DNA of 64,000 nucleotides, taken from the NCBI RefSeq assembly GCF_009914755.1, contig NC_060926.1. One strand, 5' to 3'. Below, piece after piece: positions 1-62,265 of the stretch; positions within the stretch are counted from its first letter, which is position 1, and the number at the start of each line of letters is the position of its first letter. Origin of the DNA: the human T2T-CHM13v2.0 reference genome, Homo sapiens. The notes beneath the pieces were generated by a model that was not told the origin of the DNA, did no database searches, and saw only the letters and a list, made by a program, of their open reading frames with translations. The position numbers and the translations under genes are program-made.

Positions 1-1269
1 GTTCTCACTTTTTCCATTTGACAAATCTGGTGACTCTTCCACAGAGCTACATTTTATCAGCTACTGCCTCCTGGTATTTCCTTCCTCTGCCTGTTCCACT
101 TCAACAAGCACCTCGAGGCTGCAGAATTTCTTTCTGGGCTCTACATCATTTACAAAAGAGGCTTATTACTCTCTGCATCTAGTGTGTTTGGCCCAGTGCC
201 AGAGAGATCTGCCAAGCCTTCCTTCTCTTCCTCCTCTTCCCCAGCCCAGCCTCTTCCTGGAGTTCCTTCCTGGGACCTGCAGTGCCAAGTGCTGGGGGAG
301 ATGAGGGAGTGAGTGGCCTTTCAAGTCCCTCAGGCCTCCAAGGCAGAAGGTGAAGGTTACTTGCGGGGATTAGCTGAAAACAGAGGAGCCTGATTTGGGA
401 CAATGCATTAATTCCCTGAAGAGAGTTTATCACAGGAGCTACCTCCAAAAAGTCCCACCTGCATAGGGATCTGCAGCTAGCCCTGAGAGGAAAACATATC
501 CCAGCAGCCATGCGAACTGAAAGAGTCTTTCCTTAAAAGGGAAGTGACTCTTGGCTCAAAACCTTAGGGCTCCCTTTATGGGTCCCCTCGCATTTCTTCC
601 TAGTGTGGAATACCCAGCCACACAAGGTGAACGAAGGGTTATCATTCAGAACAGACACTATTGTTTCACTTGCCACAGCACCTCATTTATTTAAAAATAA
701 TGATCTAAATACAAAGAGTAGCCATCCTCTTGAAAACCAGACACACATCCATAATGACCAGCGGGTGCACAGGCCTGGGCTTGAAGGAAGGAAATCATCA
801 GAAACAACAGGATAATGCTCCTCCCTCAGGGCATGGGTAGTGGTGAGCATTTTCAAGGTGAGGTGGACGACATTCAATTATTATTTATAGACCCAGTGGG
901 GAGGGCTTTGGGGCTGCTGGGAAGCCTGTGGCAGCCGGGGACAGCACGGGCTTTGTTTGAGCAAAGATACCTATGTCCTGGGTATTGGGATGGAGTACCC
1001 GCCCCAGGCCAGCAGCTCCAGTGCACGCCCAGGAGGAGGCTTCCTCTTGCTGGCCTCTTAAACATGGCTTGCGATAGCAATAGTTGTGCCTTCTTAGAAT
1101 GTGCAGCAGTGTGCTTAGGAATCCTGGGTGTCTCTGAACCATAGCTGCCCAGAAAAGAACTTCAACATGCACCCTTTGTCCTAGGCCAATCTCTACTTCC
1201 ATTTCAAAATCCACAGACCTCCGAATTGGGTCCCTCCTCTGCAGTCTGAACACAGTGGGTATGTCTTTA

Positions 1270-1430
1270 TTTATCACCCTCCATATTGTATAAGAATGAT
1301 TGGATCAGGTGTCTGTTTCCCTTACTAGAGAGCAGAGTCCTTAGAAGTAGGCACCTGATGTTAACTCATATTTGTAGATCCTGTGCCTGGCACACATAGG
1401 TGCTCAATTAATAGTTCATGAATCGATTTG
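1270..1430 (+). mobile_element. L2 LINE 3' end fragment
   Basis: GTGCCTGGCACACATAGGTGCTCAATTAATAGTTCATGAAT resembles the L2 3' terminus. Confidence 0.65.
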
Positions 1431-1480
1431 TGGAGTCTGTCTTTGAAAAGCTCATTTTAAAACATTCCAAATGATGGTGA

Positions 1481-1806
<326 letters not shown>

Positions 1807-1808
1807 TG

Positions 1809-2162
<354 letters not shown>

Positions 2163-2257
2163 TAGGTCATCAGGACCTCAGATGGGGTTTGTTAGTATTA
2201 TTTGATACAATGATTATCACAATGGAAATTTCTTACGTCTTCAACACTTCACAATTT

Positions 2258-2596
2258 ATTATTTATTTTTACTTATTTATTTGTTTATTTATTTTTGAGA
2301 TAGAGTCTTGCTCTGTGGCCCAAGCTAGAGTGCCGTAGCCTGATCCTGGCTCACTGCAGCCTTGAACTCCTGGGCTCAAACAGATCCTCCCACCTCAGCC
2401 TCCCAAGTATCTGAGGCTATAGGTACACACCACCATGCCCTGCTAATTTTAAATTTTTTTTTTGTAGAAACAGGGTTTCTAAACATACAAAAATTAGCAT
2501 GTTTCCCATGCTAATTTCAAACTCCTGGGCTCAAGTGATCTCCTGCTTTGGCCTCCCAAGTGCTGGGATTACAGGTATGAACCACCACGCCTGGCC
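2258..2596 (-). mobile_element. AluJ-like element with (TTTA)n tail
   Basis: Reverse Alu; TSD-like ACTTCACAATTT / ACTTGACAATTT. Confidence 0.92.
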
Positions 2597-2709
2597 TACT
2601 TGACAATTTCAAACCCTTTCAATTTTATTGTCACATATTATCATGTGTACTTCTTATCTGTATGTCTGGGGAGACATATTTTTAAATCTTATAAAAATCA
2701 GATGACCTT

Positions 2710-3294
<585 letters not shown>

Positions 3295-3304
3295 TCATCA
3301 GCAA

Positions 3305-3530
3305 TATACAGTGCTTACCAAGTGCCAGGCACTGTTCTGGGTGTTTGCACATATTAACTCACTTGATCCTCACAACCACCCTATGAGATAGGGGCTCTTA
3401 ATATTTCCATTTTACAGATGAGGAAAAATGAGGCATGCAGAGAGTAGGTAAATTGCTCAAGATTGCACCAGCAAGTGGTAGACATTGTCTACTATTTCTT
3501 GAATTTCTGAAACTCAAGAGCAAAACAGCA
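3305..3530 (-). mobile_element. MIR SINE
   Basis: GTGCCAGGCACTGTTCT...ATCCTCACAACCACCCTATGAGATAGG...CCATTTTACAGATGAGGAAA (MIR core). Confidence 0.85.
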
Positions 3531-3719
3531 ATGATAATATTGGCAAAGAATGGGGTCATCTGCTGCCACCAAAACCCACTTTCCCTGGCCCCCTTTCTGA
3601 GGTGCAGCCCATTTATTTCTTGAGCCAATCCTTGAGTTTGGCAGGGCCCTTCCTGTCCACACGATGAACCTGGTTTGTGGCACTGGCCCCATGTATCCAA
3701 ACGGTCCACCGTGGACAGA

Positions 3720-3845
3720 GGGTCATGGTTAAGATCTGGGATTTCAAATCAGACAAACATGGGCTGGACTTCTGGTTCTGTCCATTCTCAGCTATATGAT
3801 CTCTGAGCCTTAGCTTTACCATCTGTAAAATAGAGATAACAGCCA
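3720..3845 (+). mobile_element. MIR SINE fragment
   Basis: CTGAGCCTTAGCTTTACCATCTGTAAAATAGAGATAA (MIR core). Confidence 0.7.
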
Positions 3846-4766
3846 TGTCTGTGCCTCTGTGGCCTTTCATGTCAGCAGCTTTTTGCCCACCCCACACCCC
3901 TCACACAAGACGAGGCCCTTGAACTAAACAGACACTGAAAGGAAGGCAGCCTGGAGGCCTGTGGAGCTCCCTGGCATGATTGGAGCCATTGTTCTGTCGC
4001 TGGGGAGGGCCTTCTGGAAGAGAGGGCAGAGGGCTGCAGCACCTTTGGTAGACATCTGCCTCAGAGATTTCTTCTGCCTTGCTGTTTGGAGACATAAGCT
4101 TTTCCTTCAGAGGGTGAAGTAAGTGGAGATGAAAGAAGCTACTTCATGGAAACAACAGTTGTGACTGGCAGGAGGGCTGGCAAGAGGCCTGGAAGTAGGC
4201 TCAGCCCAGGGTTGTGTCCCTGGGGTGCACCTCAGAGAACTTGGGCCAACAGCATGCTCTCTGTTTATTCAGGAGTTTCCTCACTGAACCCTCTGAGGAA
4301 ACAGCTTTGTAAGGAAAGGGAAAACATATGGGTGAGACAAGGTACTCAGTGGCCCAATGGAGCCCAAGTGGCTGCCTACAAATTGGCTCCTACCTTGATA
4401 CCGAGGGGGAGAGGATCCCTCCGGTTCCTGCCCTGCATGGGCTCAGGGCCAGTTGTATAGTGCCAGGCCCTTGTGAGTGGCTGGCCTATGGCCACTGCCT
4501 TCTGGGAGACCTGGTACCTTTAGGGAGGTCCATTTACTCTTCCAGGCCTTTCAGGCCCCTTCAGTCGTTTCTGAGAGGCATTAACTTGCCTGTTTGTAAC
4601 AGAAATATCCATCTCTTCACTCACTTTGCTCCACCTCTTCTTCATCCTTGGTGGGAAGAGGTTTTAAAAGCATAAAAATATACCAAAATTATGCTGTGAA
4701 ATGTTATAATATGAGCAGGCGAGACGTTTGTTTTTCTAATGAGGGCTTTACTTGGAAAAAAGAATT

Positions 4767-5062
4767 GGCTGGGCGTGGTGGCTTACACCTGTAATCCCAG
4801 CACTTTGGGAGGCCGAGGTGGGTGGATCGCCTGAGATCAGGAGTTTGAGACCAGCCTGGCCAACGTCGTAAAACCCCGTTTCTACTAAAAATACAAAAAT
4901 TAGCCGGGCATGATGGAGAGTGCCTGTAATCTCAGCTCAGGAGGCTGAGGCAGGAGAATTGCTTGAACCCCGGAGGCAGAGATTGCAGTGAGCTGAGATC
5001 ACGCCACTGCACTCCAGCTTGGGTGACAAGGCAAGACTTCGTCTCAAAAAAAAAAAAAAAAA
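4767..5062 (+). mobile_element. AluS (Sx-like)
   Basis: GGCTGGGCGTGGTGGCTTACACCTGTAATCCC..., A-rich linker, poly(A) tail. Confidence 0.96.
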
Positions 5063-7055: not shown

Positions 7056-7408
<353 letters not shown>

Positions 7409-7428
7409 AGCAGAATCTTTTCTTTGTT

Positions 7429-8332
7429 GGGAGGAGCCAAGATGGCCGAATAGGAACAGCTCCGGTCTACAGCTCCCAGCGTGAGCGACGCAGAAGACGG
7501 GTGATTTCTGCATTTCCATCTGAGGTACCGGGTTCATCTCACTAGGGAGTGCCAGACAGTGGGCGCAGGTCAGTGTGTGCACGCACCGTGCGCGAGCCGA
7601 AGCAGGGCGAGGCATTGCCTCACCTGGGAAGCGCAAGGGGTCAGGGAGTTCCCTTTCCGAGTCAAAGAAAGGGGTGACGGACGCACCTGGAAAATCGGGT
7701 CACTCCCACCCGAATATTGCGCTTTTCAGACCGGCTTAAGAAACGGCGCACCACGAGACTATATCCCGCACCTGGCTCAGAGGGTCCTACGCCCACGGAG
7801 TCTCGCTGATTGCTAGCACAGCAGTCTGAGATCAAACTGCAAGGCGGCAGCGAGGCTGGGGGAGGGGCGCCCGCCATTGCCCAGGCTTGATTAGGTAAAC
7901 AAAGCAGCCGGGAAGCTCGAACTGGGTGGAGCCCACCACAGCTCAAGGAGGCCTGCCTGCCTCTGTAGGCTCCACCTCTGGGGGCAGGGCACAGACAAAC
8001 AAAAAGACAGCAGTAACCTCTGCAGACTTAAGTGTCCCTGTCTGACAGCTTTGAAGAGAGAAGTGGTTCTCCCAGCATGCAGCTGGAGATCTGAGAACGG
8101 GCAGACTGCCTCCTCAAGTGGGTCCCTGACCCCTGACCCCCGAGCAGCCTAACTGGGAGGCACCCCCCAGCAGGGGCACACTGACACCTCACACAGCAGG
8201 GTATTCCAACAGACCTGCACCTGAGGGTCCTGTCTGTTAGAAGGAAAACTAACAACCAGAAAGGACATCTACACCGAAAACCCATCTGTACATCACCATC
8301 ATCAAAGACAAAAAGTAGATAAAACCACAAAG
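7429..8332. promoter_or_regulatory. L1 5'UTR: internal sense promoter with YY1 site, plus antisense promoter; CpG-rich
   Basis: YY1 motif CAAGATGGCCG at about 7438-7448; many retained CpGs; known L1 architecture. Confidence 0.9.
7662..7877 (-). CDS. L1 ORF0 (71 aa, antisense), intact
   Basis: ATG at 7877-7875 on the - strand gives MAGAPPPASLPPCSLISDCCASNQRDSVGVGPSEPG...RHPFL*, the primate L1 ORF0 peptide. Confidence 0.85.
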   Translation of the reverse strand: MAGAPPPASLPPCSLISDCCASNQRDSVGVGPSEPGAGYSLVVRRFLSRSEKRNIRVGVTRFSRCVRHPFL

Positions 8333-9349
8333 ATGGGGAAAAAACAGAACAGAAAAACTGGAAACTCTAAAACGCAGAGCGCCTCTCCTCCTCCAAAGGA
8401 ACGCAGTTCCTCACCAGCAACAGAACAAAGCTGGATGGAGAATGATTTTGACGAGCTGAGAGAAGAAGGCTTCAGACGATCAAATTACTCTGAGCTACGG
8501 GAGGACATTCAAACCAAAGGCAAAGAAGTCGAAAACTTTGAAAAAAATTTAGAAGAATGTATAACTAGAATAACCAATACAGAGAAGTGCTTAAAGGAGT
8601 TGATGGAGCTGAAAACCAAGGCTCGAGAACTACGTGAAGAATGCAGAAGCCTCAGGAGCCGATGCGATCAACTGGAAGAAAGGGTATCAGCAATGGAAGA
8701 TGAAATGAATGAAATGAAGCGAGAAGGGAAGTTTAGAGAAAAAAGAATAAAAAGAAACGAGCAAAGCCTCCAAGAAATATGGGACTATGTGAAAAGACCA
8801 AATCTACGTCTGATTGGTGTACCTGAAAGTGATGTGGAGAATGGAACCAAGTTGGAAAACACTCTGCAGGATATTATCCAGGAGAACTTCCCCAATCTAG
8901 CAAGGCAGGCCAACGTTCAGATTCAGGAAATACAGAGAACGCCACAAAGATACTCCTCGAGAAGAGCAACTCCAAGACACATAATTGTCAGATTCACCAA
9001 AGTTGAAATGAAGGAAAAAATGTTAAGGGCAGCCAGAGAGAAAGGTCGGGTTACCCTCAAAGGAAAGCCCATCAGACTAACAGCGGATCTCTCGGCAGAA
9101 ACCCTACAAGCCAGAAGAGAGTGGGGGCCAATATTCAACATTCTTAAAGAAAAGAATTTTCAACCCAGAATTTCATATCCAGCCAAACTAAGCTTCATAA
9201 GTGAAGGAGAAATAAAATACTTTATAGACAAGCAAATGCTGAGAGATTTTGTCACCACCAGGCCTGCCCTAAAAGAGCTCCTGAAGGAAGCGCTAAACAT
9301 GGAAAGGAACAACCGGTACCAGCCGCTGCAAAATCATGCCAAAATGTAA
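8333..9349 (+). CDS. LINE-1 ORF1p (338 aa RNA-binding chaperone), intact
   Basis: MGKKQNRKTGNSKTQSASPPPKERSSSP...QNHAKM; coiled coil, RRM and CTD with REKG, ARR and YPAKLS motifs intact. Confidence 0.98.
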   Translation: MGKKQNRKTGNSKTQSASPPPKERSSSPATEQSWMENDFDELREEGFRRSNYSELREDIQTKGKEVENFEKNLEECITRITNTEKCLKELMELKTKARELREECRSLRSRCDQLEERVSAMEDEMNEMKREGKFREKRIKRNEQSLQEIWDYVKRPNLRLIGVPESDVENGTKLENTLQDIIQENFPNLARQANVQIQEIQRTPQRYSSRRATPRHIIVRFTKVEMKEKMLRAAREKGRVTLKGKPIRLTADLSAETLQARREWGPIFNILKEKNFQPRISYPAKLSFISEGEIKYFIDKQMLRDFVTTRPALKELLKEALNMERNNRYQPLQNHAKM

Positions 9350-9385
9350 AGACCATCGAGACTAGGAAGAAACTGCATCAACTAA

Positions 9386-13240
<3,855 letters not shown>

Positions 13241-13839
13241 ACAATGAGATCACATGGACACAGGAAGGGGAATATCACACTCTGGGGACTGTGGTGGGGT
13301 CGGGGGAGGGGGGAGGGATAGCATTGGGAGATATACCTAAGGCTAGATGACGAGTTAGTGGGTGCAGCGCACCAGCATGGCACATGTATACATATGTAAC
13401 TAACCTGCACAATGTGCACATGTACCCTAAAACTTAGAGTATAATAAAAAAAAAAAAAATTAAAAAAAAAAATAATAAAAATAAAAATAAAAAAAAATAA
13501 ATAAAAAAAAACAAAAAAAAATAAAAGAAAAAAAAAAGAATCTTTTCTTTGTCTTCCTTTTATTTAAAAAAATCAAAATGAAGCCTTTTCAGTGCAAAAT
13601 TTTCAGAAAAATAGCTCTCTTTTCCATTGCAACATTGTGCTGAGAACATGCGTGTCTTGATTCTGCCTCTACTTTTCAACGCATGGCAGCTACCTTAGTT
13701 CAGGTTCTTATCGTCTCTTTCATTATTGTAATTACATGGCTACTTTTCTTACCTCCATTCTCATTCCCTTTCCTATCCATCAGCCACACTATTGTTAAAT
13801 TGAACTTTGAAAGTACAGGTCTAAGAAAGTTGACGACAC

Positions 13840-15509: not shown

Positions 15510-16010
15510 GGTTTGATCTCAGTTACTCCCTTACTTGAAGAAGGCTTCGATGATTCCTCATGGAGAAATCCCAGATACTTCTGCACATGATTCAGAGGTC
15601 CCTTACAACTGGCTTCAGCCTGCCTTCCAAGCCCTGTCTCTCGCCTCTCCCTTCCTTCACGCCGTGCTTCAGCGAGGTAGGAATGCTTGTGATTCACCTT
15701 CCAGGTCAAGATGATTGGCCCCTCGGCCTTCACATATGCTGTTCCCTCTGCTGTTCCCCATGCTGCCCCCAGGGAGCTGCCCATCACCCGCCAGGACCTT
15801 CCTGCCCTGGGTGCACCCATAGTGCTTTGTGCCTTTCTCTTTCTTGCCACTTGCCACATTTTACTGTAGTTATTTGTTTATAATTACAAATATAAACCTG
15901 CTACTCTAGGAGTAAGCTCTTTGAGGGACCTGTGTCTCCCTAGACCTACGACAGTCAGTGCTTGTGACACTATGGGAATAGGCGCCTCATAGCTGTTCCA
16001 TGAATGAATG
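15510..16010 (+). mobile_element. L2 3' region
   Basis: GGCCTTCACATATGCTGTTCCCTCTGC...GTAAGCTCTTTGAGGG...ATGAATGAATG. Confidence 0.7.
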
Positions 16011-36765: not shown

Positions 36766-37056
36766 AAACCTTTGCAGCACCAGAAAGAGCAGTAGCTCCT
36801 GAGGGATTCTAGATTAGATTTCTTGAATTTTCTCTTTTAGATAGTTATCTATTGTTTTCTCAATTGTTTTGGATATATGAAAGTTTTCATACAATTGGGA
36901 AAGAAATGGATTCAGAGAATCCCAAGATACATTCCCTTCTTATTCTGAGACACCAGTGTGTAGGCCCTAGGGATGAAAGGAAGACTTACTTTTAACAGTA
37001 TTCCCTTTTGTACACTTCAGGTTTAGCACCATGTACAAATCATATACAAGTATCTA

Positions 37057-37383
37057 TTTTTTTTATTATACTTTAAGTTCTAGGGTACGTGTGCACAACG
37101 TGCAGGTTTGTTATATATGTATACGTGTACCATGTTGGTGTGCTGCACCCGTTAACTTGTCATTTAGCATTAGATATATCTCCTAATGCTATCCCTCCCC
37201 CCTCCCCCCACCCCACAACAGGCCCCGGTGTGTGATGTTCTCCTTCCTGTGTCCATGTGTTCTCATTATTCAGTTCCCACCTATGAGTGAGAACATGTGG
37301 TGTTTGGTTTTTTTGTCCTTGCGATAGTTTGCTGAGAATGATGGTTTCCAGCTTCATCCATATCCCTACAAAGGACATGAACT
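37057..37383 (-). mobile_element. 5'-truncated L1PA (PA3-PA5-like) 3' end
   Basis: TTATTATACTTTAAGTTCTAGGGTAC...AATGCTATCCCTCCCC; TSD AAGTATCTATTTTTT at 37048 and 37391. Confidence 0.95.
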
Positions 37384-37449
37384 GTGGCATAAGTATCTAT
37401 TTTTTAAGTGTTTAAATTAGAAAATGAAATTTAAATAAAAATTGTACAT

Positions 37450-38490: not shown

Positions 38491-39502
38491 TGGTTGTCTC
38501 AATGCTGATGCTCTTGGCTGCAAGTAAGAAACTTCCATTTGACTAACTCAAACAGCAAGGGTGTTCATTATCTCACATGACACAAGTCTGGGAGCAAGAA
38601 GAAAGGATTGAGTACATGCCAGGGATTCTGCTAGCCCCAGCAATATGAAGATGAGTAAGACCTAGCTCCTGCTCATGGGGAACTCACATAGGGATAGAAA
38701 GGTAGGCAGATCCACAGTCTGTGGATTTGTTCATAGTTCACCATTAGCTGGTAGTCTATCTTTATTTTAATAGGCACATGTGATTCTTATTAAATGAACA
38801 CATGGCTTACAGACAGCTATTAAATAAGTCATTGCTTTTTAAGAGAAATATTTATTTGTGCTTCAAACCAATGATGTATTTTTTCATCAAGATTAATAAT
38901 ATTTCTGTATATCTACATATGACTTTATTGGCTTGCATTTTGCATAATCTTACATCATCTTGCTTTTTTGGCCTTATTTGCAAACAGGGCAATTTTCTGA
39001 TCGTAAGAATCATGTTCGTGTTAGATCAAAAAAACAGTTTGAGTCATTTTAACACTTTTATTATGAGAAATATTTTTAAAATAAGTATTTCATCTATTTT
39101 ATTGCAGATAATTCTTTCCTTTGCACAAAAACTGTTATTAGTCTCATGAAAAATAGATGTGTTTAGAACTAGCGCCATGATACATCACTGACATTCTTCA
39201 AAAGTTCACATCTGATATCCCGTTCAAATTCTTGGTTTTTTTTCTCATAGTTTTCTACAAGCCTCTCTTTATTAGACTCCAGCTTTTGTTGTTTCCTACT
39301 TTTTCTTACACTTGTGTTGTAGAAAGCACATTGGATTAGCAACCAGGAGACTTTAATACTAGTTTTAGTTTAGTACAATTTGTTCTGCAGTTTGGCCTCA
39401 GCTTAATAAAACAAGACATTTGACCTGGGTCAGAGATGAAAAAAAAATTTTTTTCCTCCCTGCAGCTCTAACTCTGATAGGTAGTAACTGCCTGAATGAC
39501 TT

Positions 39503-40500
39503 GTTTGCATTTCCAGGATAAATCCTATTTGGTCATAATGCATTGTCCTTCTTATATGTTATTGGATTCAATTTGCTAAAATTTTGTTCAGAATTCTTGA
39601 GTCTTATTTATGAAGAATATGGGTCTGTAGTTTTCTTGCAGTGTCTTTTTCTGGATTCTGTTATTGTACTAATTCTGGCCTCATGCAGTATTGGAAAGTA
39701 TTCCTTTCTCTTTACTTTTCTGGGAGAGTTTGTGTAGAATTGGTATTGTTTTTTTCTTAAATGTTTGGTAAAATCCCCAAGTGAAGGAATTTGAGTCTGG
39801 AGCTTTCTTTGTGGGAAGATTTTAAACTACAAATTCAATTTATTTAACAGGGCTATTTAGGTTATCTGTTTCTTCTTGAGTAAGCTTTTTTAAGTGGGAC
39901 TAGGGCAGTATTTGGTCTATGGTTAATGTCACCCAGTGCCAAGTGAAGGCCCTTTTGAGTAGTCTACCTGATACCCTGTGAGTTATGAGGTCTGGCTAGT
40001 GAGAACAGGCATTGTTCCCAGCCCTAGGTGAGCTCCCTGTACTCCTTATTCCTTAATTATTTCAGGTAATTCTTTCCTACTGTCAGGCAGTTTCTTCTCA
40101 TTTATATCGAACAAATAGTCAACTGAATATTTAGGGGGATCCTCTGCAGATTTCCAGAGTCCTCTCTGCAGCTCTCTCCTCTCTGGTATTCCACCCTGTG
40201 AGCTCTAGCTACCTCGGCCTCCCCAGTTTCCTCTACTCAGAGAGACAGCTGACTCCATCTGGGTTTCTCCTCCTTGCACTGTGGCCTGGAAACTCTCTCA
40301 ATGCAGTAAGCTGGGAAAATCTTAGGGCTCACCTCATCTGTTATCCCATCTTTCAGGGATCACTGCCTTTCATTGCCTGATGTCCAATGTCTTGAGAACT
40401 GTTGTTTCATATATTTTGTCTGATTTTTTCGTTGTTTGGAGTAGAAGAATAAGTTCAGTTTCTGATCCTCCATCTTGGTCTATAATGGATGTCTCCAGAT
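39503..40500 (-). mobile_element. Old L1M fragments (ORF2 part and 5' part)
   Basis: TTGCATTTCCAGGATAAATCCTATTTGGTCATAATG...TTGGATTCAATTTGCTAAAATTTTGTT typical of antisense L1. Confidence 0.8.
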
Positions 40501-40670
40501 TGGATAATTTTTACAAGTTCATTTAAAATTGTGATTCCAGACCTCCAAAATCACCTTCTTTGGGTGATTTTTAGATAGACTTTGGTTACTTAAATTCTGT
40601 TTTTAATTTTGTGTTTGACAGTTTCTTCATTCTAATATCTGCTGTCCTATAGATAGGTTTTGGCATTCTG

Positions 40671-41534
40671 CTTGCTTCAGAAAAATCCAAAGCACTTCCA
40701 CCTGTCTCTGTGTGTCCCCTGGCATGGAGGAGGGCAGACATCCACCATGTTCCACAGATGACCCTTCTGAGGCGAGAGGAGTATGTGATTTGTTCAAGGT
40801 AGAATATTTCAGTAGTAGCAGAATTCTAGAAATTGATTAAGGTACTTGACCCTTGGGTCAGAGAACTGAGCCGCCCTCTTTCTGCATAAAGTCACCTTTT
40901 GGGTACCCAGGACATTTTAATCTTGTTGGCATTCAGTCTGCAAATAAAGCTGACTCATAAGTATATCCATTAAACACATTTTAAAAAGAATACTTGGAAG
41001 TTTCCTATCCTGCTGATGTCTAAAATTTCAAAATCAACTAGTCATTTATTTGGGTAAAGCAATCCTCTTCTAAGCATTTCTTCCATAATCCAGTTGCATC
41101 TCAGGGAAATAATGTAAGTTAACATTCTATTTTAATTAACTACTTAGATTTTTTTTTCTCCTACAATAACAGGAACAGGTGAAAACCCTCATGTCAGTAA
41201 GCAGGGTATAAAAGGTGGGGAAAAGTGTCCGGAGATGGCTTTACCTGTGAGTCAGCTTTATTTGCACACTGAATGCCAACAAGATTAAAATGTCCTGGGC
41301 ACTGAAAAGATGACTTTTTGCAGAAAGAGAGTGGCTCAGCTCTCTGACCCAAGGAGTAAATCACCTTAATCAATTTCTGGAATTCTGTTGTTACTGAAAT
41401 GTTCTACTTGCACAAATCACATACTTCTCTGGCCTCAAAAGGGTCATCTATGAATCAGGGTGGATGTCTGCCATCCTCCGTGCCAGAGGACACACAGAGA
41501 CAGGTGGAAGTGCTTTGGATTCTTCAGAAGCAAG
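40671..41534. repeat. Long inverted repeat of unrecognised sequence (300-bp arms, 264-bp spacer)
   Basis: 40671-40970 is the reverse complement of 41235-41534 at about 85-90%; perfect blocks of 34 bp (40684-40717) and 32 bp (40906-40937). Confidence 0.96.
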
Positions 41535-41860
41535 ATGCAGACACAAAATATGTGTAGGATGCATTGTCAGCTTTTTGCTCATGATTGGAACAAGGCTGCA
41601 GACTTAATTATCAAGTTTCATCCCTCTGTCAATGGATGAAGAGTCATCTTGGGGACAAGAACAAGATCTCATTTAGTTATCTAGGTATTTTAGATGACAC
41701 TTGGTTTTTTAAGGAAGGGATGATTTTTGCATTCCTGTGGACTTCTTTCTGAAGTCAAGCTGAAATGAAGTCTCAGAATCCTCATGTCATTTTGTTTTCT
41801 AAACAAGTAAAGTGGAGGTCAATGGCTCCAGGGACCTTTGCCGCACAAAAAGAAACACCC

Positions 41861-42172
41861 GGCCAGGTGCAGGGGCTCACGCCTGTAATCCAAGCACTTT
41901 GGGAGACCGAGGCAGGTGGATCATCTGAGGCCAGGAGTTCGAGACCAGCTTGGCCAACATGGTGAAACCCTGTCTTTACTAAAAATACAAAAATTAGCTG
42001 GGCGTGGTGGCAGGTGCCTGTAATCCCAGCTACTCAGGAGGCTGAGGCAGGAGAATCGCTTGAACCTGGGTGGCGGAGGTTGCAATGAGCCGAGATGGTG
42101 CCATTCTACTCCAGCCTAGGCAACAAGAGTGAAACTCTGTCTTAAAAAATAAATAAATAAAAATAAAACAAA
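41861..42172 (+). mobile_element. AluS
   Basis: Full Alu; TSD-like AAACACCC on both sides. Confidence 0.95.
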
Positions 42173-42539
42173 TTTTAAAAAACACCCCATATTTGTGCTC
42201 CCAAAGTGGTCACTAAACTTTGAAATCCATCTCACAGGGTTTGGTGGGGTGGGAGTGGGGGGGAACTAAAATTCCATATGGAAAGGAGGTGGAAGGTGGT
42301 CCATGAGTCTCTGGTTTTAGATATCCTTCATGGGCAATTATCCTGTCTACTATTGGGGCTTGATGAGGTAAGGTGAAGTCAGGGCAGAAGAAATGGACCC
42401 CTGCCTCCAAGAAATAATCTTAGTCATTAAGTTAGCATTTTCACAATCTTTTACCTTTTTTTGACAGAGATCTAGAAGACAAGACCCAGAGGACACAGGG
42501 AGCACAATTATTCCATACTGTAAGGCATAATTGAGTCAG

Positions 42540-42710
42540 ACTCACATTGATGTACATCACTTTCGCTGGGGCACTTTTGTAAAACATCAGATTTCCAGCC
42601 ACTACTCCAAGAGATTCTAATTCAGAAAGGCTGGGAGAGGGCCCTCAGTCTTCATTTTTAACAAAGACCCAGTGTTTCTGATGTCTACCTCACTTTTAGA
42701 AAGATTGACA
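42540..42710. mobile_element. MER5-type element
   Basis: AGATTTCCAGCCACTACTCCAAGAGATTCTAATTCAG...CATTTTTAACAA. Confidence 0.6.
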
Positions 42711-42825
42711 TAGGTCTTTTAAGCTACAGTCAGTGACTCTACTGGATGGTCCAAGTGTTTCCTAGGAGAGAAGCTTTTCAGGAAATGGGAGAACTGTAAT
42801 CATTGAGGCACAAAAGAATAACTGA

Positions 42826-43243
<418 letters not shown>

Positions 43244-59948: not shown

Positions 59949-62265
59949 TAGGCATGCCTCGTTTTACTACCTTTTGCTTTATTGTGCTTCACAGATGCTG
60001 TGTTTTTTGCAAATGGACGGTTTGGGCAACTCTTTGTGGAGCAAGTCTATCGGTGCCATTTTCCCAACAACATGGATTCACTTCATGTCTCTGAGTCACA
60101 TTTTGGTAATTTTCTCAATATTTTGAACTTTTCATTATTATTATATCTATTATGGTGATCTGTGATCATGTCTTTGATGTTACTATGGTAATCGTTTGGG
60201 GGTGCCAAGACCTGTGACCATGTAAAATGGCAAACTTAATTGCTGAATGTTGTGTGAGTTTTCTGACTCCTCCATAAATAGGCTGTCCCCCCACCCCCAC
60301 CCCCCCACCATATCTGTTCCTCTCCTCAGGCCTCCCTATTCCCTAATTAGCAATTAGGCTAATTAATAATCCTACAATGGCCTCTGAGTATCTGAGTGAA
60401 AAGAAGAGTCACATATCTCTCATTTTAAATCAAAAGCTAGAAATGATTACGCTTAGTGAGGAAGACATGTCAAAAGCTGAGAAGGCTAAAAGTTAGGCCT
60501 CTCGCACTAAACAGTTAGCCAAGTTGTGAATGCAAAGGAAAAATTCTTGAGGGAAATTAAAAGGGCTACTTAAGCAAACAAACAAATGATAAGAAAGTGA
60601 AACAGGCTTATTGCTGATATGGAGAAAGTTTTTGTGGTCTGGGTAGAAGATCAAACCAGCCATAACATTCCCTTAGGCCGAAGCCTAATAATCCAGTGCA
60701 AGGCCCTAACTCTCTTCAATTCTTTGAAAGCTAAGAGAAGTGAGGAAGCTGCAGAAGAAAAGTTAGAAGGTAGCAAAGGGTGATTGACGAGGTTTAAGGA
60801 AAGAAGCCATTTCCATAACATAATAGTGCAAAGTGAAGCAGCAAGTGCTGATGTAGAAGCTGCAGCAAGTGATCCAGAAGATCTAGCTAAGATGAAGGTG
60901 GCTACACTAAACAATAGACTTTCAATGGCAAAAACTGCAATTACTTTTGTACCAGCCTAATAGAAGAAATTGCCTTTCACTGGAAGAAGATGCCATCTAG
61001 GACTTTCGTAGCCAACGAGAAGTCAATGCCTGGTTTCAAAGCTTCAAAAGACAGGCTGACTGTATAGCTAGGAGTTAATGCATCTGGGTACTTTAAGTTG
61101 AAGCCAATGCTCATTGCCATTCTGAAAATTTTTGAGCCCTTAAGAATTATGCTAAAACTCCTCTGCCTGTGCTCTACAAATGGAACAACAAAGCCTGATG
61201 ACAGCACATCTGTTTAAAGCATGGTTAGCTGAATATTTTAAGCCCACTGTTGAGATCTACTGCTCAGAAAGAAAGATTCCTTTCAAAATATTACTGCTCA
61301 CTGACACTTTACCTAGTCACCCAAGAGCTTAATGGGTATGTACAAGGAGATTAATGTTGTTTTAATGCCTGCTAACACAACATCCATTCCATGGACCGTG
61401 GATCAAGGAGTAAATTTGACTTATTACTCAAGAAATACATTTTGTAAGGCTATAGCTGTCATAGACATTTCTCTGATATATCTGGGCAAAGTAAATTAAA
61501 AACATTCTGGAGAGGATTTACAGTTCTAGATGCACTTAAGAGCATTCATGATGCATGGAAAGTCAAAATATCAGCATTAATAGGAGTTTGGAAGAAGTTG
61601 ATTCCAACCCTGATAGATGGCTGAGGGGGGTTCAAGACTTCAGTGGAGAAAATAACTACAGATGTGGTAGAAATAGCAAGAGAATTTGAATTAGAAAGGG
61701 ACCCTGAAGATGTGATGAAATCGCTGCAATCTCATGATAAAACTTTAACAAATGAAGAGTTGTTTCTTATGGATGAACAAAGAAAGTTGGTTTCTTGATA
61801 TATAATCTATTCCTGGTGAAAATGCTGTGAATGCATTGTCGAGATGACAACAAAGGATTTAGAATATTACATAAACTTAGTTAACAAAATAGCTCCAGGG
61901 TTTGACAGAATTGATTCCAATTTTCAAAGAAGTTCTACTATGGGCAAAATGCTATCAAACACCATTGCATGCTACAGATAAATCTTTCATGGAAGGAAGC
62001 GTCAGTCAATGTGGCAAACTTCATTGTTATCTGATTTTAAGAAATTGCCACATCCACCCCAATTTTCAGCAACCACCACTCTGATCAGTCGGCAGCCATC
62101 AACATTGAGGTAAGACCCTCCACCAGCAAAAACATTATGATTCACTGAAGGCTCAGATGATTGTTAGCACTTCTTAGCAATAAAGTATTTTAAATTAAAA
62201 TGTGTACGTTTTTTAGACAAAATGCTATTGCATACTTACTAGACTAGAGTATAATGTAAACAACT
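59949..62265 (+). mobile_element. Tigger1 (TcMar) DNA transposon, near full length, decayed transposase, right end missing
   Basis: TA + TAGGCATGCCTCGTTTT left TIR; AAATCAAAAGCTAGAAATGATT, GAAGATCAAACCAGCCATAACATTCCC and GATCAGTCGGCAGCCATCAACATTGAGG match Tigger1; many stop codons. Confidence 0.93.
60924..60960. mobile_element. Half MADE1 (Hsmar1 TIR) inside Tigger1
   Basis: AATGGCAAAAACTGCAATTACTTTTGTACCAGCCTAA followed by TA matches the right half of MADE1. Confidence 0.85.

What the first reader, a model, noticed from the sequence alone, without database searches (positions are those of the whole stretch)
40671..41534. Long inverted repeat of apparently unique DNA: candidate hairpin-RNA locus or unannotated foldback element
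Seen: 40671-40970 and 41235-41534 are reverse complements over 300 bp, about 85-90% identical by hand alignment with few indels. They include uninterrupted 34-bp (AATCCAAAGCACTTCCACCTGTCTCTGTGTGTCC) and 32-bp (CCCAGGACATTTTAATCTTGTTGGCATTCAGT) blocks, and weaker similarity extends outward to about 40644/41560. The arms match no Alu, L1, LTR or MER consensus I recognise, unlike every other inverted pair in the window. Established: closely spaced long inverted repeats are unstable in DNA, and if transcribed they form dsRNA that can be a substrate for ADAR, Dicer (endo-siRNA) and PKR/MDA5. Inference: this is (a) an old local inverted duplication, possibly homogenised by arm-to-arm gene conversion, (b) a selected long hairpin RNA, or (c) an uncatalogued long-TIR transposon. 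Many mismatches are transitions, but I see no clear G-U bias toward one strand, so RNA-level selection is not shown.
Basis: partly seen in the sequence, partly recalled or inferred. Interest (0 to 1): 0.8.

Follow-up and report, generated by a model that had tools for sequence, protein, structure and literature searches.

The report
Old inverted duplication in lncRNA intron
A real 300-325-base inverted repeat of otherwise single-copy human DNA that looks like an old local inverted duplication drifting neutrally, not a transposon and not a demonstrably selected hairpin RNA.

Summary
Arms 40671-40970 and 41235-41534 are 88% identical reverse complements. A weaker extension reaches 40645/41559 (P about 0.02). 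The spacer is 264 bp and is not palindromic.

The arms are unique DNA. Each arm finds only itself and its partner in the 3.1-Gb T2T genome (2 of 2 candidates). The spacer and the right flank are single copy. The same tool finds 965-4977 candidates at 68-83% identity for an old repeat 100 bp to the left. This excludes a transposon family and two independent repeat insertions.

I found no target-site duplication, no transposase-like reading frame and no Rfam family.

The arm differences look neutral:
- core transitions to transversions 23:12;
- all 3 CpG sites differ between arms;
- G·U-compatible changes 12 against 12 on the two strands;
- 35 of 47 differences would break pairing on either strand.

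Core K2P is 0.129, which implies roughly 30-65 Myr.

Best reading: a one-off local inverted duplication in an early anthropoid ancestor. An intronic + strand transcript would form a roughly 320-bp, 89%-paired duplex, a plausible ADAR substrate. Function is not shown. The finding is real but ordinary.

The parts
40645..40970 (+). Left arm of the inverted repeat. The secure core is 40671-40970; 40645-40670 is a weaker outward extension.
   Evidence: Searches give the alignment, one search gives 88% over 300 nt, and one search gives P about 0.02 for the extension.
40971..41234 (.). 264-bp spacer (the loop of the hairpin). It is single copy, 33% G+C, and not self-complementary.
   Evidence: 1 of 1 genome candidate is the spacer itself. 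G+C 0.333, and the inverted alignment of the spacer halves has P=0.61.
41235..41559 (-). Right arm, the reverse complement of the left arm. The secure core is 41235-41534.
   Evidence: 2 of 2 genome candidates are this arm and its partner.
40684..40717 (+). 34-bp block identical in both arms; its partner is 41488-41521.
   Evidence: the pattern with up to 3 mismatches has exactly 1 forward and 1 reverse site in the genome, and the reversed control has 0 and 0; longest run 34, P=0.17 under random placement of the differences.
40906..40937 (+). 32-bp block identical in both arms; its partner is 41268-41299.
   Evidence: second-longest run 32, P=0.015 (post hoc). Coordinates read.
40943..40948 (+). 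AATAAA hexamer 22 nt before the inner end of the left arm. Its mirror image is at 41257-41262 on the - strand, so both point into the spacer.
   Evidence: Sequence. AATAAA frequency gives about 3% chance of one in the last 30 nt of an arm. No poly(A) tail was seen and the per-arm target-site duplication tests were not significant.

Best explanation
This is a one-off local inverted duplication of about 300-325 bp of unique intergenic/intronic DNA. A single rearrangement made it. The likeliest routes are a replication template switch to the opposite strand and back, or a staggered-break inversion that left the 264-bp spacer between an original and its inverted copy. From the arm divergence, the event falls roughly 30-65 Myr ago, in an early anthropoid or primate ancestor, if there has been no gene conversion. 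Since then the two arms have diverged neutrally and independently. The repeat has no selected function. It lies in an intron of the predicted + strand lncRNA LOC107985960 (hub annotation). As a by-product, a primary transcript through it would fold into a roughly 320-bp duplex that is about 89% paired, with a 264-nt loop. That duplex is a plausible nuclear ADAR substrate but is too mismatched to be a strong MDA5 ligand. What is shown: the repeat, its uniqueness, the absence of transposon hallmarks, and the neutral-looking difference pattern. What is inferred: the mechanism of origin, the date, transcription and editing.
For: Copy number:
- The left arm finds 2 of 2 candidates, itself and its partner. 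The right arm does the same.
- The 34-mer with up to 3 mismatches has 2 sites; the reversed control has 0.
- The spacer and the right flank are single copy.
- There is no other match in the 64-kb window.

Sensitivity controls with the same tool:
- An Alu-like masked piece gives 1974 candidates.
- The old repeat at 39504-40542 gives 4977 and 965 candidates. Scored copies of that repeat are 70-78% identical; scored copies are 68-83%, with one 35-base match at 86% (E 0.57).
- A family as old as or older than the arm divergence would therefore have been seen.
- 0 of 11 fetched copies of that repeat resemble 40543-41843.

Neutral pattern:
- The core has 299 aligned sites with 23 transitions and 12 transversions, p=0.117, K2P=0.129.
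- All 3 CpG sites are present in one arm only.
- Differences are evenly spread over the core (chi-square P=0.71).
- G·U-compatible transitions are 12 and 12 on the two strands (binomial P=1.0).

No transposon hallmarks:
- The best direct repeat across the outer flanks is no better than shuffles (P=0.96).
- Per-arm tests give P=0.46 and 0.15.
- 0 of the 7 longest of 17 stop-to-stop frames reaches a Pfam cut-off.

Precedent for the mechanism: template-switch mutations create inverted repeats in one step, and more than 50,000 are inferred in genic regions on the primate-to-human lineage (PMC10710096, passages read).
Against: - No outgroup genome was available, so the single-copy ancestral state, the date, and which arm is the copy are all untested.
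- Template-switch events described in the passages I read of PMC10710096 are tens of bases long (28 bases in the example). These arms are about ten times longer, so the mechanism is an extrapolation.
- I found no junction microhomology.
- Two perfect runs of 34 and 32 bp are somewhat more than random placement predicts (second-longest run P=0.015).
- The outer 26 columns are more diverged than the rest (10 of 26 against 37 of 301, Fisher P=0.0013).
- Both of those tests are post hoc, but they leave room for patchy gene conversion or local constraint.
- I could not run Dfam or RepeatMasker. A very old, very diverged repeat ancestry of the duplicated segment is therefore not excluded, though it would not change the duplication reading.
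Confidence: 0.7

Rival explanations
1. The inverted repeat is much older than its 12-13% arm divergence suggests. Intermittent arm-to-arm gene conversion (concerted evolution) has kept the arms similar.
For: The second-longest perfect run of 32 bp has P=0.015 under random placement of the differences. The outer 26 columns are about three times as diverged as the core (Fisher P=0.0013), as expected if conversion tracts rarely reach an edge.
Against: Both tests are post hoc. The longest run of 34 is unremarkable (P=0.17, simulated mean 27.7). Differences in the core are evenly spread (chi-square P=0.71). The inner edge shows no excess divergence (last bins 1 and 4). Eight of the 9 substitutions in the outer 26 columns are transversions, which fits poor alignment or weak homology rather than old homology.
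Confidence: 0.12
2. The locus is a selected long hairpin RNA. The transcribed repeat would be processed into endo-siRNAs or miRNA-like RNAs, or would serve as an ADAR or RNA-binding-protein scaffold. The two perfect 32-34-bp duplex blocks would be the functional parts.
For: The RNA folds into one long helix at -517.8 kcal/mol, z = -32. It lies on the sense strand within a predicted lncRNA intron (hub annotation). Its features match or exceed the medians of the 4,597 edited non-repetitive dsRNAs of dsRNAscan. It has 327 columns, a 34-bp contiguous stretch, 89% pairing and a 264-nt loop. The medians are 144 bp, 30 bp, 87.5% and 509 nt (PMC11838218 Table 1). The second perfect block is nominally longer than expected (P=0.015).
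Against: Wobble-compatible changes show no strand asymmetry (12 against 12). Thirty-five of 47 differences (20 transversions, 12 transitions that are wobble only on the other strand, and 3 gaps) disrupt pairing on either strand. The ts:tv ratio and CpG decay look neutral. No Rfam family reaches threshold: 10 matches at E up to 10 in 39500-42700, 3 of them inside the repeat at 14-18 bits against gathering scores of 55-90. No sequence elsewhere in the genome resembles the arms, so there is no trans target of the kind that fly hpRNA loci have. An AATAAA near the inner end of each arm could end transcripts before the second arm is made.
Confidence: 0.06
3. The element is a foldback or long-TIR DNA transposon, or a MITE-like element, present as a single surviving or uncatalogued copy.
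For: The architecture fits: long terminal inverted repeats around a short AT-rich core, about 915 bp in total.
Against: A complete T2T genome has no third copy of either arm or of the spacer. The search detects neighbouring families at 68-83% identity. There is no target-site duplication (P=0.96). None of the 7 longest of 17 frames shows a transposase-like match. A family active 30-65 Myr ago should have left many copies at about 6-7% from its consensus.
Confidence: 0.05
4. The arms are two independent insertions of the same known interspersed repeat in opposite orientation.
For: This is the usual origin of roughly 300-bp inverted pairs in human DNA. More than 90% of the dsRNAs predicted by dsRNAscan are repetitive (PMC11838218).
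Against: Only 2 copies exist in the genome. The Alu-like control gives 1974 candidates with the same tool.
Confidence: 0.01

Closest known systems
Non-repetitive intramolecular dsRNA-forming inverted repeats catalogued genome-wide by dsRNAscan (bioRxiv 2025, PMC11838218; passages and Tables 1-2 read)
   Same: Both are inverted repeats of non-repeat DNA within 10 kb. Under that pipeline's scoring (+3, -4, -12, G·U counted as a match) this one scores 712 against a threshold of 75, and it is 89% paired against a 70% filter. The catalogue should therefore already hold it (inference). Its length, contiguous stretch, pairing and loop size resemble the 4,597 edited non-repetitive members more than the 492,832 unedited ones.
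   Different: At about 320 bp it is more than twice the median length of even the edited class (144 bp). Whether it is listed, edited or conserved is in supplementary tables and a browser that I could not open.
Template-switch mutations that create hairpins in one step (Proc Natl Acad Sci 2023, PMC10710096; passages read)
   Same: [quoted passage not shown] Such events are frequent on the primate lineage and lie in introns.
   Different: The described events are tens of bases long (fragments of 15 nt or more; 28 bases in the example). These arms are about 300-325 bp and lie 264 bp apart. No ancestral state is available here to show the event.
Inverted Alu pairs (IR-Alus), the main human ADAR substrates
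   Same: Arms are about 300 bp, identity is 85-90%, and the pairs are intronic. The predicted duplex energy is in the range quoted for edited repetitive dsRNAs (median -410.8 kcal/mol, PMC11838218 Table 1; here -517.8 for arms plus loop).
   Different: The arms are single-copy DNA made by one duplication, not two retrotransposon insertions. The RNA can pair only with itself, not with thousands of other transcripts.
Drosophila hpRNA loci and mouse-oocyte hairpin endo-siRNA loci (PMC10317233 and PMC8728187 seen as abstract or passages; the rest recalled)
   Same: Both are long inverted duplications able to form hairpin RNA hundreds of base pairs long.
   Different: Those loci derive from, and are complementary to, a target gene elsewhere, and they have small-RNA evidence. 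These arms have no other homologue in the genome, and no small-RNA data could be consulted.
Human long inverted repeats of Wang and Leung, for example inverted GSTM exons in a primate GSTM5 intron (seen only as citations and passages in the Lirex paper PMC5414712; the original papers are not held)
   Same: Both are primate-age intronic inverted repeats of non-transposon DNA found by genome scans.
   Different: The GSTM5 case copies exons of a paralogue. This one copies anonymous local DNA and has no coding frame.

Membership tests
Local (segmental) inverted duplication | Exactly two copies, adjacent, in opposite orientation, with no other copy in the genome | tested here: met
   2 of 2 candidates each; 2 sites and 0 in the control; no other match in the window.
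Local (segmental) inverted duplication | Copies diverge as neutral DNA (ts:tv near 2, CpG decay, even spread) | tested here: met
   The core has 23 transitions and 12 transversions. All 3 CpG sites differ between the arms. Spread is even at chi-square P=0.71.
Local (segmental) inverted duplication | Single-copy ancestral state in an outgroup | not testable with these tools
   No other mammalian genome is held; the genome search covers only this assembly and prokaryotes.
Foldback / long-TIR DNA transposon or MITE | Multiple dispersed copies | tested here: not met
   There is no third copy of either arm or of the spacer. The same tool finds 965-4977 candidates for a neighbouring old repeat.
Foldback / long-TIR DNA transposon or MITE | Target-site duplication flanking the termini | tested here: not met
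   The best direct match between the outer flanks scores 7 against a shuffle mean of 8.8, P=0.96.
Foldback / long-TIR DNA transposon or MITE | Match to a curated consensus (Dfam/Repbase) | not testable with these tools
   No repeat library is available. The hub's list of masked stretches does not include the arms, but that mask is nearly all Alu-like or L1.
Retrocopy (one arm a retroposed RNA 3' end) | Poly(A) tail and target-site duplication around one arm | tested here: not met
   AATAAA lies 22 nt from each inner end, but no A-tract is visible after either arm in the printed flanks. Per-arm TSD tests give P=0.46 and 0.15. No parent locus exists.
Selected structured RNA / hpRNA locus | Long stable hairpin | tested here: met
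   -517.8 kcal/mol, z = -32.
Selected structured RNA / hpRNA locus | Substitutions biased to keep pairing on the transcribed strand | tested here: not met
   12 against 12 wobble-compatible transitions, and 35 of 47 differences disrupt pairing on either strand. With one species this is a within-locus proxy, not a covariation test.
Selected structured RNA / hpRNA locus | Homology to a target gene in trans | tested here: not met
   No other genomic match at E up to 10 or E up to 0.001.
Selected structured RNA / hpRNA locus | Transcription, small RNAs or A-to-I editing from the arms | not testable with these tools
   No expression, small-RNA or editing data are available. The only information is the hub annotation placing the repeat in a predicted lncRNA intron.
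Known RNA family (Rfam 15, including miRNA precursors) | Score at or above the family gathering threshold | tested here: not met
   0 of 10 matches in 39500-42700 reach threshold. The 3 inside the repeat score 14-18 bits against 55-90.
Long, highly paired dsRNA (putative MDA5 ligand as defined in PMC11838218: >300 bp and >96% paired) | More than 96% of nucleotides paired | tested here: not met
   292 of 327 columns pair when G·U is counted, which is 89%. The length criterion is met.
Recombinogenic palindrome / long inverted repeat | Short spacer relative to arm length and high identity | tested here: inconclusive
   The thresholds quoted in the Lirex paper from Lobachev et al. are a spacer under 20 bp, or an arm-to-spacer ratio above 16 for strong effect. 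They are not met: the spacer is 264 bp and the ratio is 1.2. Lirex's own looser rule (ratio at or above the mismatch rate) is met, 1.2 against 0.12 (passages).

The most novel reading that the evidence does not exclude
The locus is a primate-specific, single-copy hairpin gene born by one inverted duplication inside a lncRNA intron. The transcript would form a duplex of about 320 bp that is edited by ADAR and/or diced. The two perfectly preserved 32-34-bp duplex blocks would be kept by selection, or the arms by gene conversion, because they yield functional small RNAs or bind a dsRNA-binding protein. This would be a rare mammalian counterpart of fly hpRNA loci, but without a trans target.
Probability: 0.06. 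Interest if true: 0.55.

Novelty: new member of a known kind. Interest (0 to 1): 0.25.

Why it matters
Unique-sequence inverted repeats of this length are much rarer than inverted Alu pairs. They give a dsRNA whose origin, editing and processing can be assigned to one locus without multi-mapping ambiguity, so this one would be a clean reporter for intronic dsRNA handling if the host lncRNA is expressed. It would also be a datable example of a large template-switch or inversion-associated duplication. As it stands, nothing points to a function. The kind is already covered by genome-wide catalogues of inverted repeats and predicted dsRNAs.

Tried and rejected
- **Profile search of the genome.** I built a sequence-only covariance model of the two arms. 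I used plain DNA queries instead, with sensitivity controls.
- **Retrocopy idea.** The prompt was the AATAAA 22 nt before each inner end. I rejected it: no poly(A), no significant per-arm target-site duplication, and no parent locus.
- **Whole-element target-site duplication, outward extension beyond 40644/41560, and a palindromic spacer.** All were negative.
- **Coding or transposase origin.** I scanned the 7 longest (61-79 aa) of 17 stop-to-stop frames of 35 aa or more. None reached a Pfam cut-off. The one weak hit was CTLH at E=0.24, 11.9 against 26 bits.
- **Membership of the neighbouring old repeat (39504-40542).** 0 of 11 other copies extend into the arms.
- **Rfam.** Nothing reached threshold.
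- **Literature on the locus.** LOC107985960 appears in 2 papers, a peptide table and a GWAS table, neither about this repeat. A search on six coordinate prefixes found 0 papers. Wang and Leung 2009 and Warburton 2004 are not held.
- **NCBI's repeat mask.** I did not use it as evidence of uniqueness. Its 20 listed stretches are nearly all Alu-like or L1, and it misses the old repeat next door.

Full report
**Observation**

The repeat finder reports three contiguous inverted segments covering 40671-40970 and 41235-41534, at 90%, 81% and 89% complementarity. BLAST within the genome search gives 88% over all 300 bases.

I aligned 40645-40970 against the reverse complement of 41235-41559. The alignment has 327 columns: 280 identical, 44 mismatches and 3 one-base gaps. 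In the core (columns 27-327), 264 of 301 columns are identical.

The two perfect blocks of 34 and 32 bp exist. They lie at 40684-40717/41488-41521 and 40906-40937/41268-41299.

The outward extension to 40645/41559 is weaker. Sixteen of 26 columns are identical, and 8 of its 9 substitutions are transversions. It beats shuffles and genomic decoys only at P about 0.02. I treat 40671/41534 as the secure outer limits and 40645/41559 as the probable ones.

Nothing pairs beyond these limits (P=0.58), and the 264-bp spacer is not itself palindromic (P=0.61). As RNA, 40645-41559 folds into one long helix at -517.8 kcal/mol. Twenty shuffles give -237.6 +/- 8.7, so z = -32.

**Is the DNA unique?**

The window's own complete assembly (3.1 Gb, 24 contigs) can be searched.
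- The left arm gives 2 first-look candidates, both scored: itself and its partner.
- The right arm, queried separately at E up to 10, gives the same 2.
- The 34-base block with up to 3 mismatches has one forward and one reverse site; the reversed-pattern control has none.
- The spacer and the 299 bp to the right of the repeat each find only themselves.
- A sensitive BLAST of the element against the 64-kb window finds only the self and inverted-self alignments plus two 31-base matches at E=0.52.

These negatives mean something only if the tool can see repeats, so I ran controls.
- A masked 211-bp piece, shown to be Alu-like, gives 1974 candidates.
- A 3.95-kb query spanning the locus gives 4977 candidates. 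Of the 43 matches among the 40 candidates scored, 1 is the query itself and 2 are the arm-partner pair. Another 38 fall on 39504-39892 and 2 on 40134-40472. The 40 matches on the repeat are 70-78% identical.
- The 752 bp left of the arm gives 965 candidates. Thirty-nine of the 41 non-self matches fall within about 39990-40479 at 68-83% identity.

The search therefore reaches old families at about 70% identity, and it finds none for the arms.

That old repeat runs colinearly over 39508-40542 in one fetched copy. None of 11 fetched copies resembles 40543-41843. The arms are therefore not part of it.

I could not compare the arms with Dfam or Repbase consensus sequences. The hub's mask list is not informative about old repeats. 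Its 20 entries are nearly all Alu-like or L1, and it omits the old repeat just described.

**Transposon or retrocopy hallmarks**

I found none.
- The best direct repeat between the outer flanks is worse than the shuffle mean (score 7 against 8.8, P=0.96).
- Treating each arm as a separate insertion gives P=0.46 and 0.15.
- Seventeen stop-to-stop frames of 35 aa or more overlap the element. I scanned the 7 longest against Pfam and none reached a cut-off; the one weak hit was at E=0.24.
- Rfam at E up to 10 gives 10 matches in 39500-42700, none at gathering score. The three inside the repeat score 14-18 bits against thresholds of 55-90.

One curiosity is an AATAAA 22 nt before the inner end of each arm. 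It suggested that an arm might be a retroposed RNA 3' end. There is no poly(A) tract and no parent locus. The chance of such a hexamer in the last 30 nt is about 3%.

**How the arms differ**
- In the core there are 23 transitions and 12 transversions over 299 aligned sites, giving p=0.117 and K2P=0.129.
- All three CpG dinucleotides in the alignment are present in one arm only, as expected from methyl-CpG decay.
- Differences are spread evenly over the core (chi-square P=0.71).
- Transitions that would leave a G·U pair number 12 for a + strand RNA and 12 for a - strand RNA (binomial P=1.0).
- On either strand, 35 of the 47 differences (20 transversions, 12 transitions, 3 gaps) would break a pair.

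This is what two neutrally drifting copies look like. It is not what a helix under selection looks like.

Two observations are not fully neutral-looking, and both are post hoc. The second-longest perfect run (32) has P=0.015 under random placement, while the longest (34) has P=0.17. The outer 26 columns carry 10 differences against 37 in the other 301 (Fisher P=0.0013). They leave some room for patchy gene conversion or for a mis-set outer boundary.

**Date**

I used recalled mammalian and primate neutral rates of 1.0-2.2 x 10^-9 per site per year, which come from established knowledge and not from a tool. With these, K2P of 0.129 between the arms corresponds to 64, 43 and 29 Myr at 1.0, 1.5 and 2.2 x 10^-9. 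Each arm is then about 6-7% from the ancestral sequence, similar to what I recall for the older AluS subfamilies. This predicts that the duplication is present in apes and Old World monkeys and perhaps New World monkeys, and absent from non-primate mammals. No other mammalian genome is held here, so the prediction is untested.

**Mechanism**

The best-supported reading is a single local inverted duplication of unique DNA. Replication template switching is a documented one-step source of inverted repeats. More than 50,000 such events are inferred in genic regions on the primate-to-human lineage (PMC10710096, passages read). The described events are tens of bases long, not hundreds.

A staggered-break inversion is an alternative route to the same structure. 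It would leave an original and an inverted copy flanking an inverted 264-bp segment. This model is recalled, not checked here. I found no junction microhomology and cannot tell which arm is the copy.

At the DNA level, the 264-bp spacer and 12% mismatch put the repeat far from the strongly unstable class quoted in the Lirex paper (spacer under 20 bp, arm-to-spacer ratio above 16). It does pass that paper's looser 'recombinogenic' rule. I therefore leave its stability open.

**RNA consequence (inference)**

The hub annotation places the repeat in the intron between exons 15511-15676 and 59995-60105 of the predicted + strand lncRNA LOC107985960. A primary transcript would form a duplex of about 320 bp, with 292 of 327 columns paired when G·U is counted (89%). 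The longest perfect stretch is 34 bp and the loop is 264 nt.

Under the scoring of the genome-wide dsRNAscan survey this repeat scores 712 against a threshold of 75. That catalogue should already contain it.

Its features resemble the survey's 4,597 edited non-repetitive dsRNAs (medians 144 bp, 30 contiguous bp, 87.5% paired, loop 509 nt). They resemble the 492,832 unedited ones less (75 bp, 14 bp, 75%, 1407 nt). It fails the survey's definition of a putative MDA5 ligand, which requires more than 300 bp and more than 96% paired (PMC11838218, passages and Table 1).

The inner AATAAA sites might end some transcripts before the second arm is made.

**Literature on the locus**

LOC107985960 occurs in two papers, once in an HLA-peptide table and once in a blood-pressure GWAS table. 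Neither concerns this repeat. LOC105373742 and LOC124906094 occur in none. A search on six coordinate prefixes found nothing. I therefore found no description of this repeat in print within the library searched. Catalogues such as LIRBase require arms longer than 400 nt (PMC8728187) and would skip it.

**Verdict**

This is a real but ordinary structural relic. It is a new instance of a known kind, of modest interest unless comparative or RNA data show constraint, editing or small RNAs.

Noticed in passing
window 39504-40542: An old interspersed repeat lies about 100 bp left of the inverted repeat. It has thousands of genomic relatives: 4977 and 965 first-look candidates, with scored copies 68-83% identical. 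It is colinear over 39508-40542 in locus L014. It is absent from the hub's list of masked stretches. I could not name the family without a repeat library.
   Followed up: partly
window 40943-40948 (+) and 41257-41262 (-): An AATAAA hexamer lies 22 nt before the inner end of each arm, so both point into the spacer. It could act as a cryptic polyadenylation signal on either strand and limit hairpin formation. The chance of one hexamer in the last 30 nt is about 3%.
   Followed up: partly
window 40645-40670 / 41535-41559: The outermost 26 alignment columns are about three times as diverged as the core (10 of 26 against 37 of 301) and rich in transversions. Either the true boundary is near 40671/41534, or the edges escaped homogenisation.
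   Followed up: partly
window 41250-41264 and 41567-41579: By eye, a 13-15-base direct repeat lies on the + strand. One copy is at the inner end of the right arm and the other just outside its outer end. I did not test it statistically. It does not fit a simple fold-back priming scheme that I worked through on paper.
   Followed up: no
window 37047-37386 and 13128-13453: A masked 340-bp piece is an inverted 88.7% copy of the 3' part of the 6.5-kb masked block 7105-13585, which is L1-sized. This is another inverted pair in the window, but made of repeat DNA and 23.6 kb apart.
   Followed up: no
window 41859-42188 and 42818-43130: Two Alu-like elements lie in direct orientation just right of the repeat. 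The first gives sub-threshold Rfam matches to SRP RNA, mir-1268 and mir-1285, as Alu-derived sequences do.
   Followed up: no
hub mask list, whole window: The hub lists 20 masked stretches. The 18 stretches of 211-467 bp other than 37047-37386 each have 28-86 other matches within the window and so behave as Alu-like. The other two are the 6.5-kb block 7105-13585 (39 other matches) and 37047-37386, whose single match lies in that block. The mask behind the '24 in 100' figure therefore mainly marks young high-copy repeats. It should not be read as evidence that unmasked DNA is unique.
   Followed up: yes
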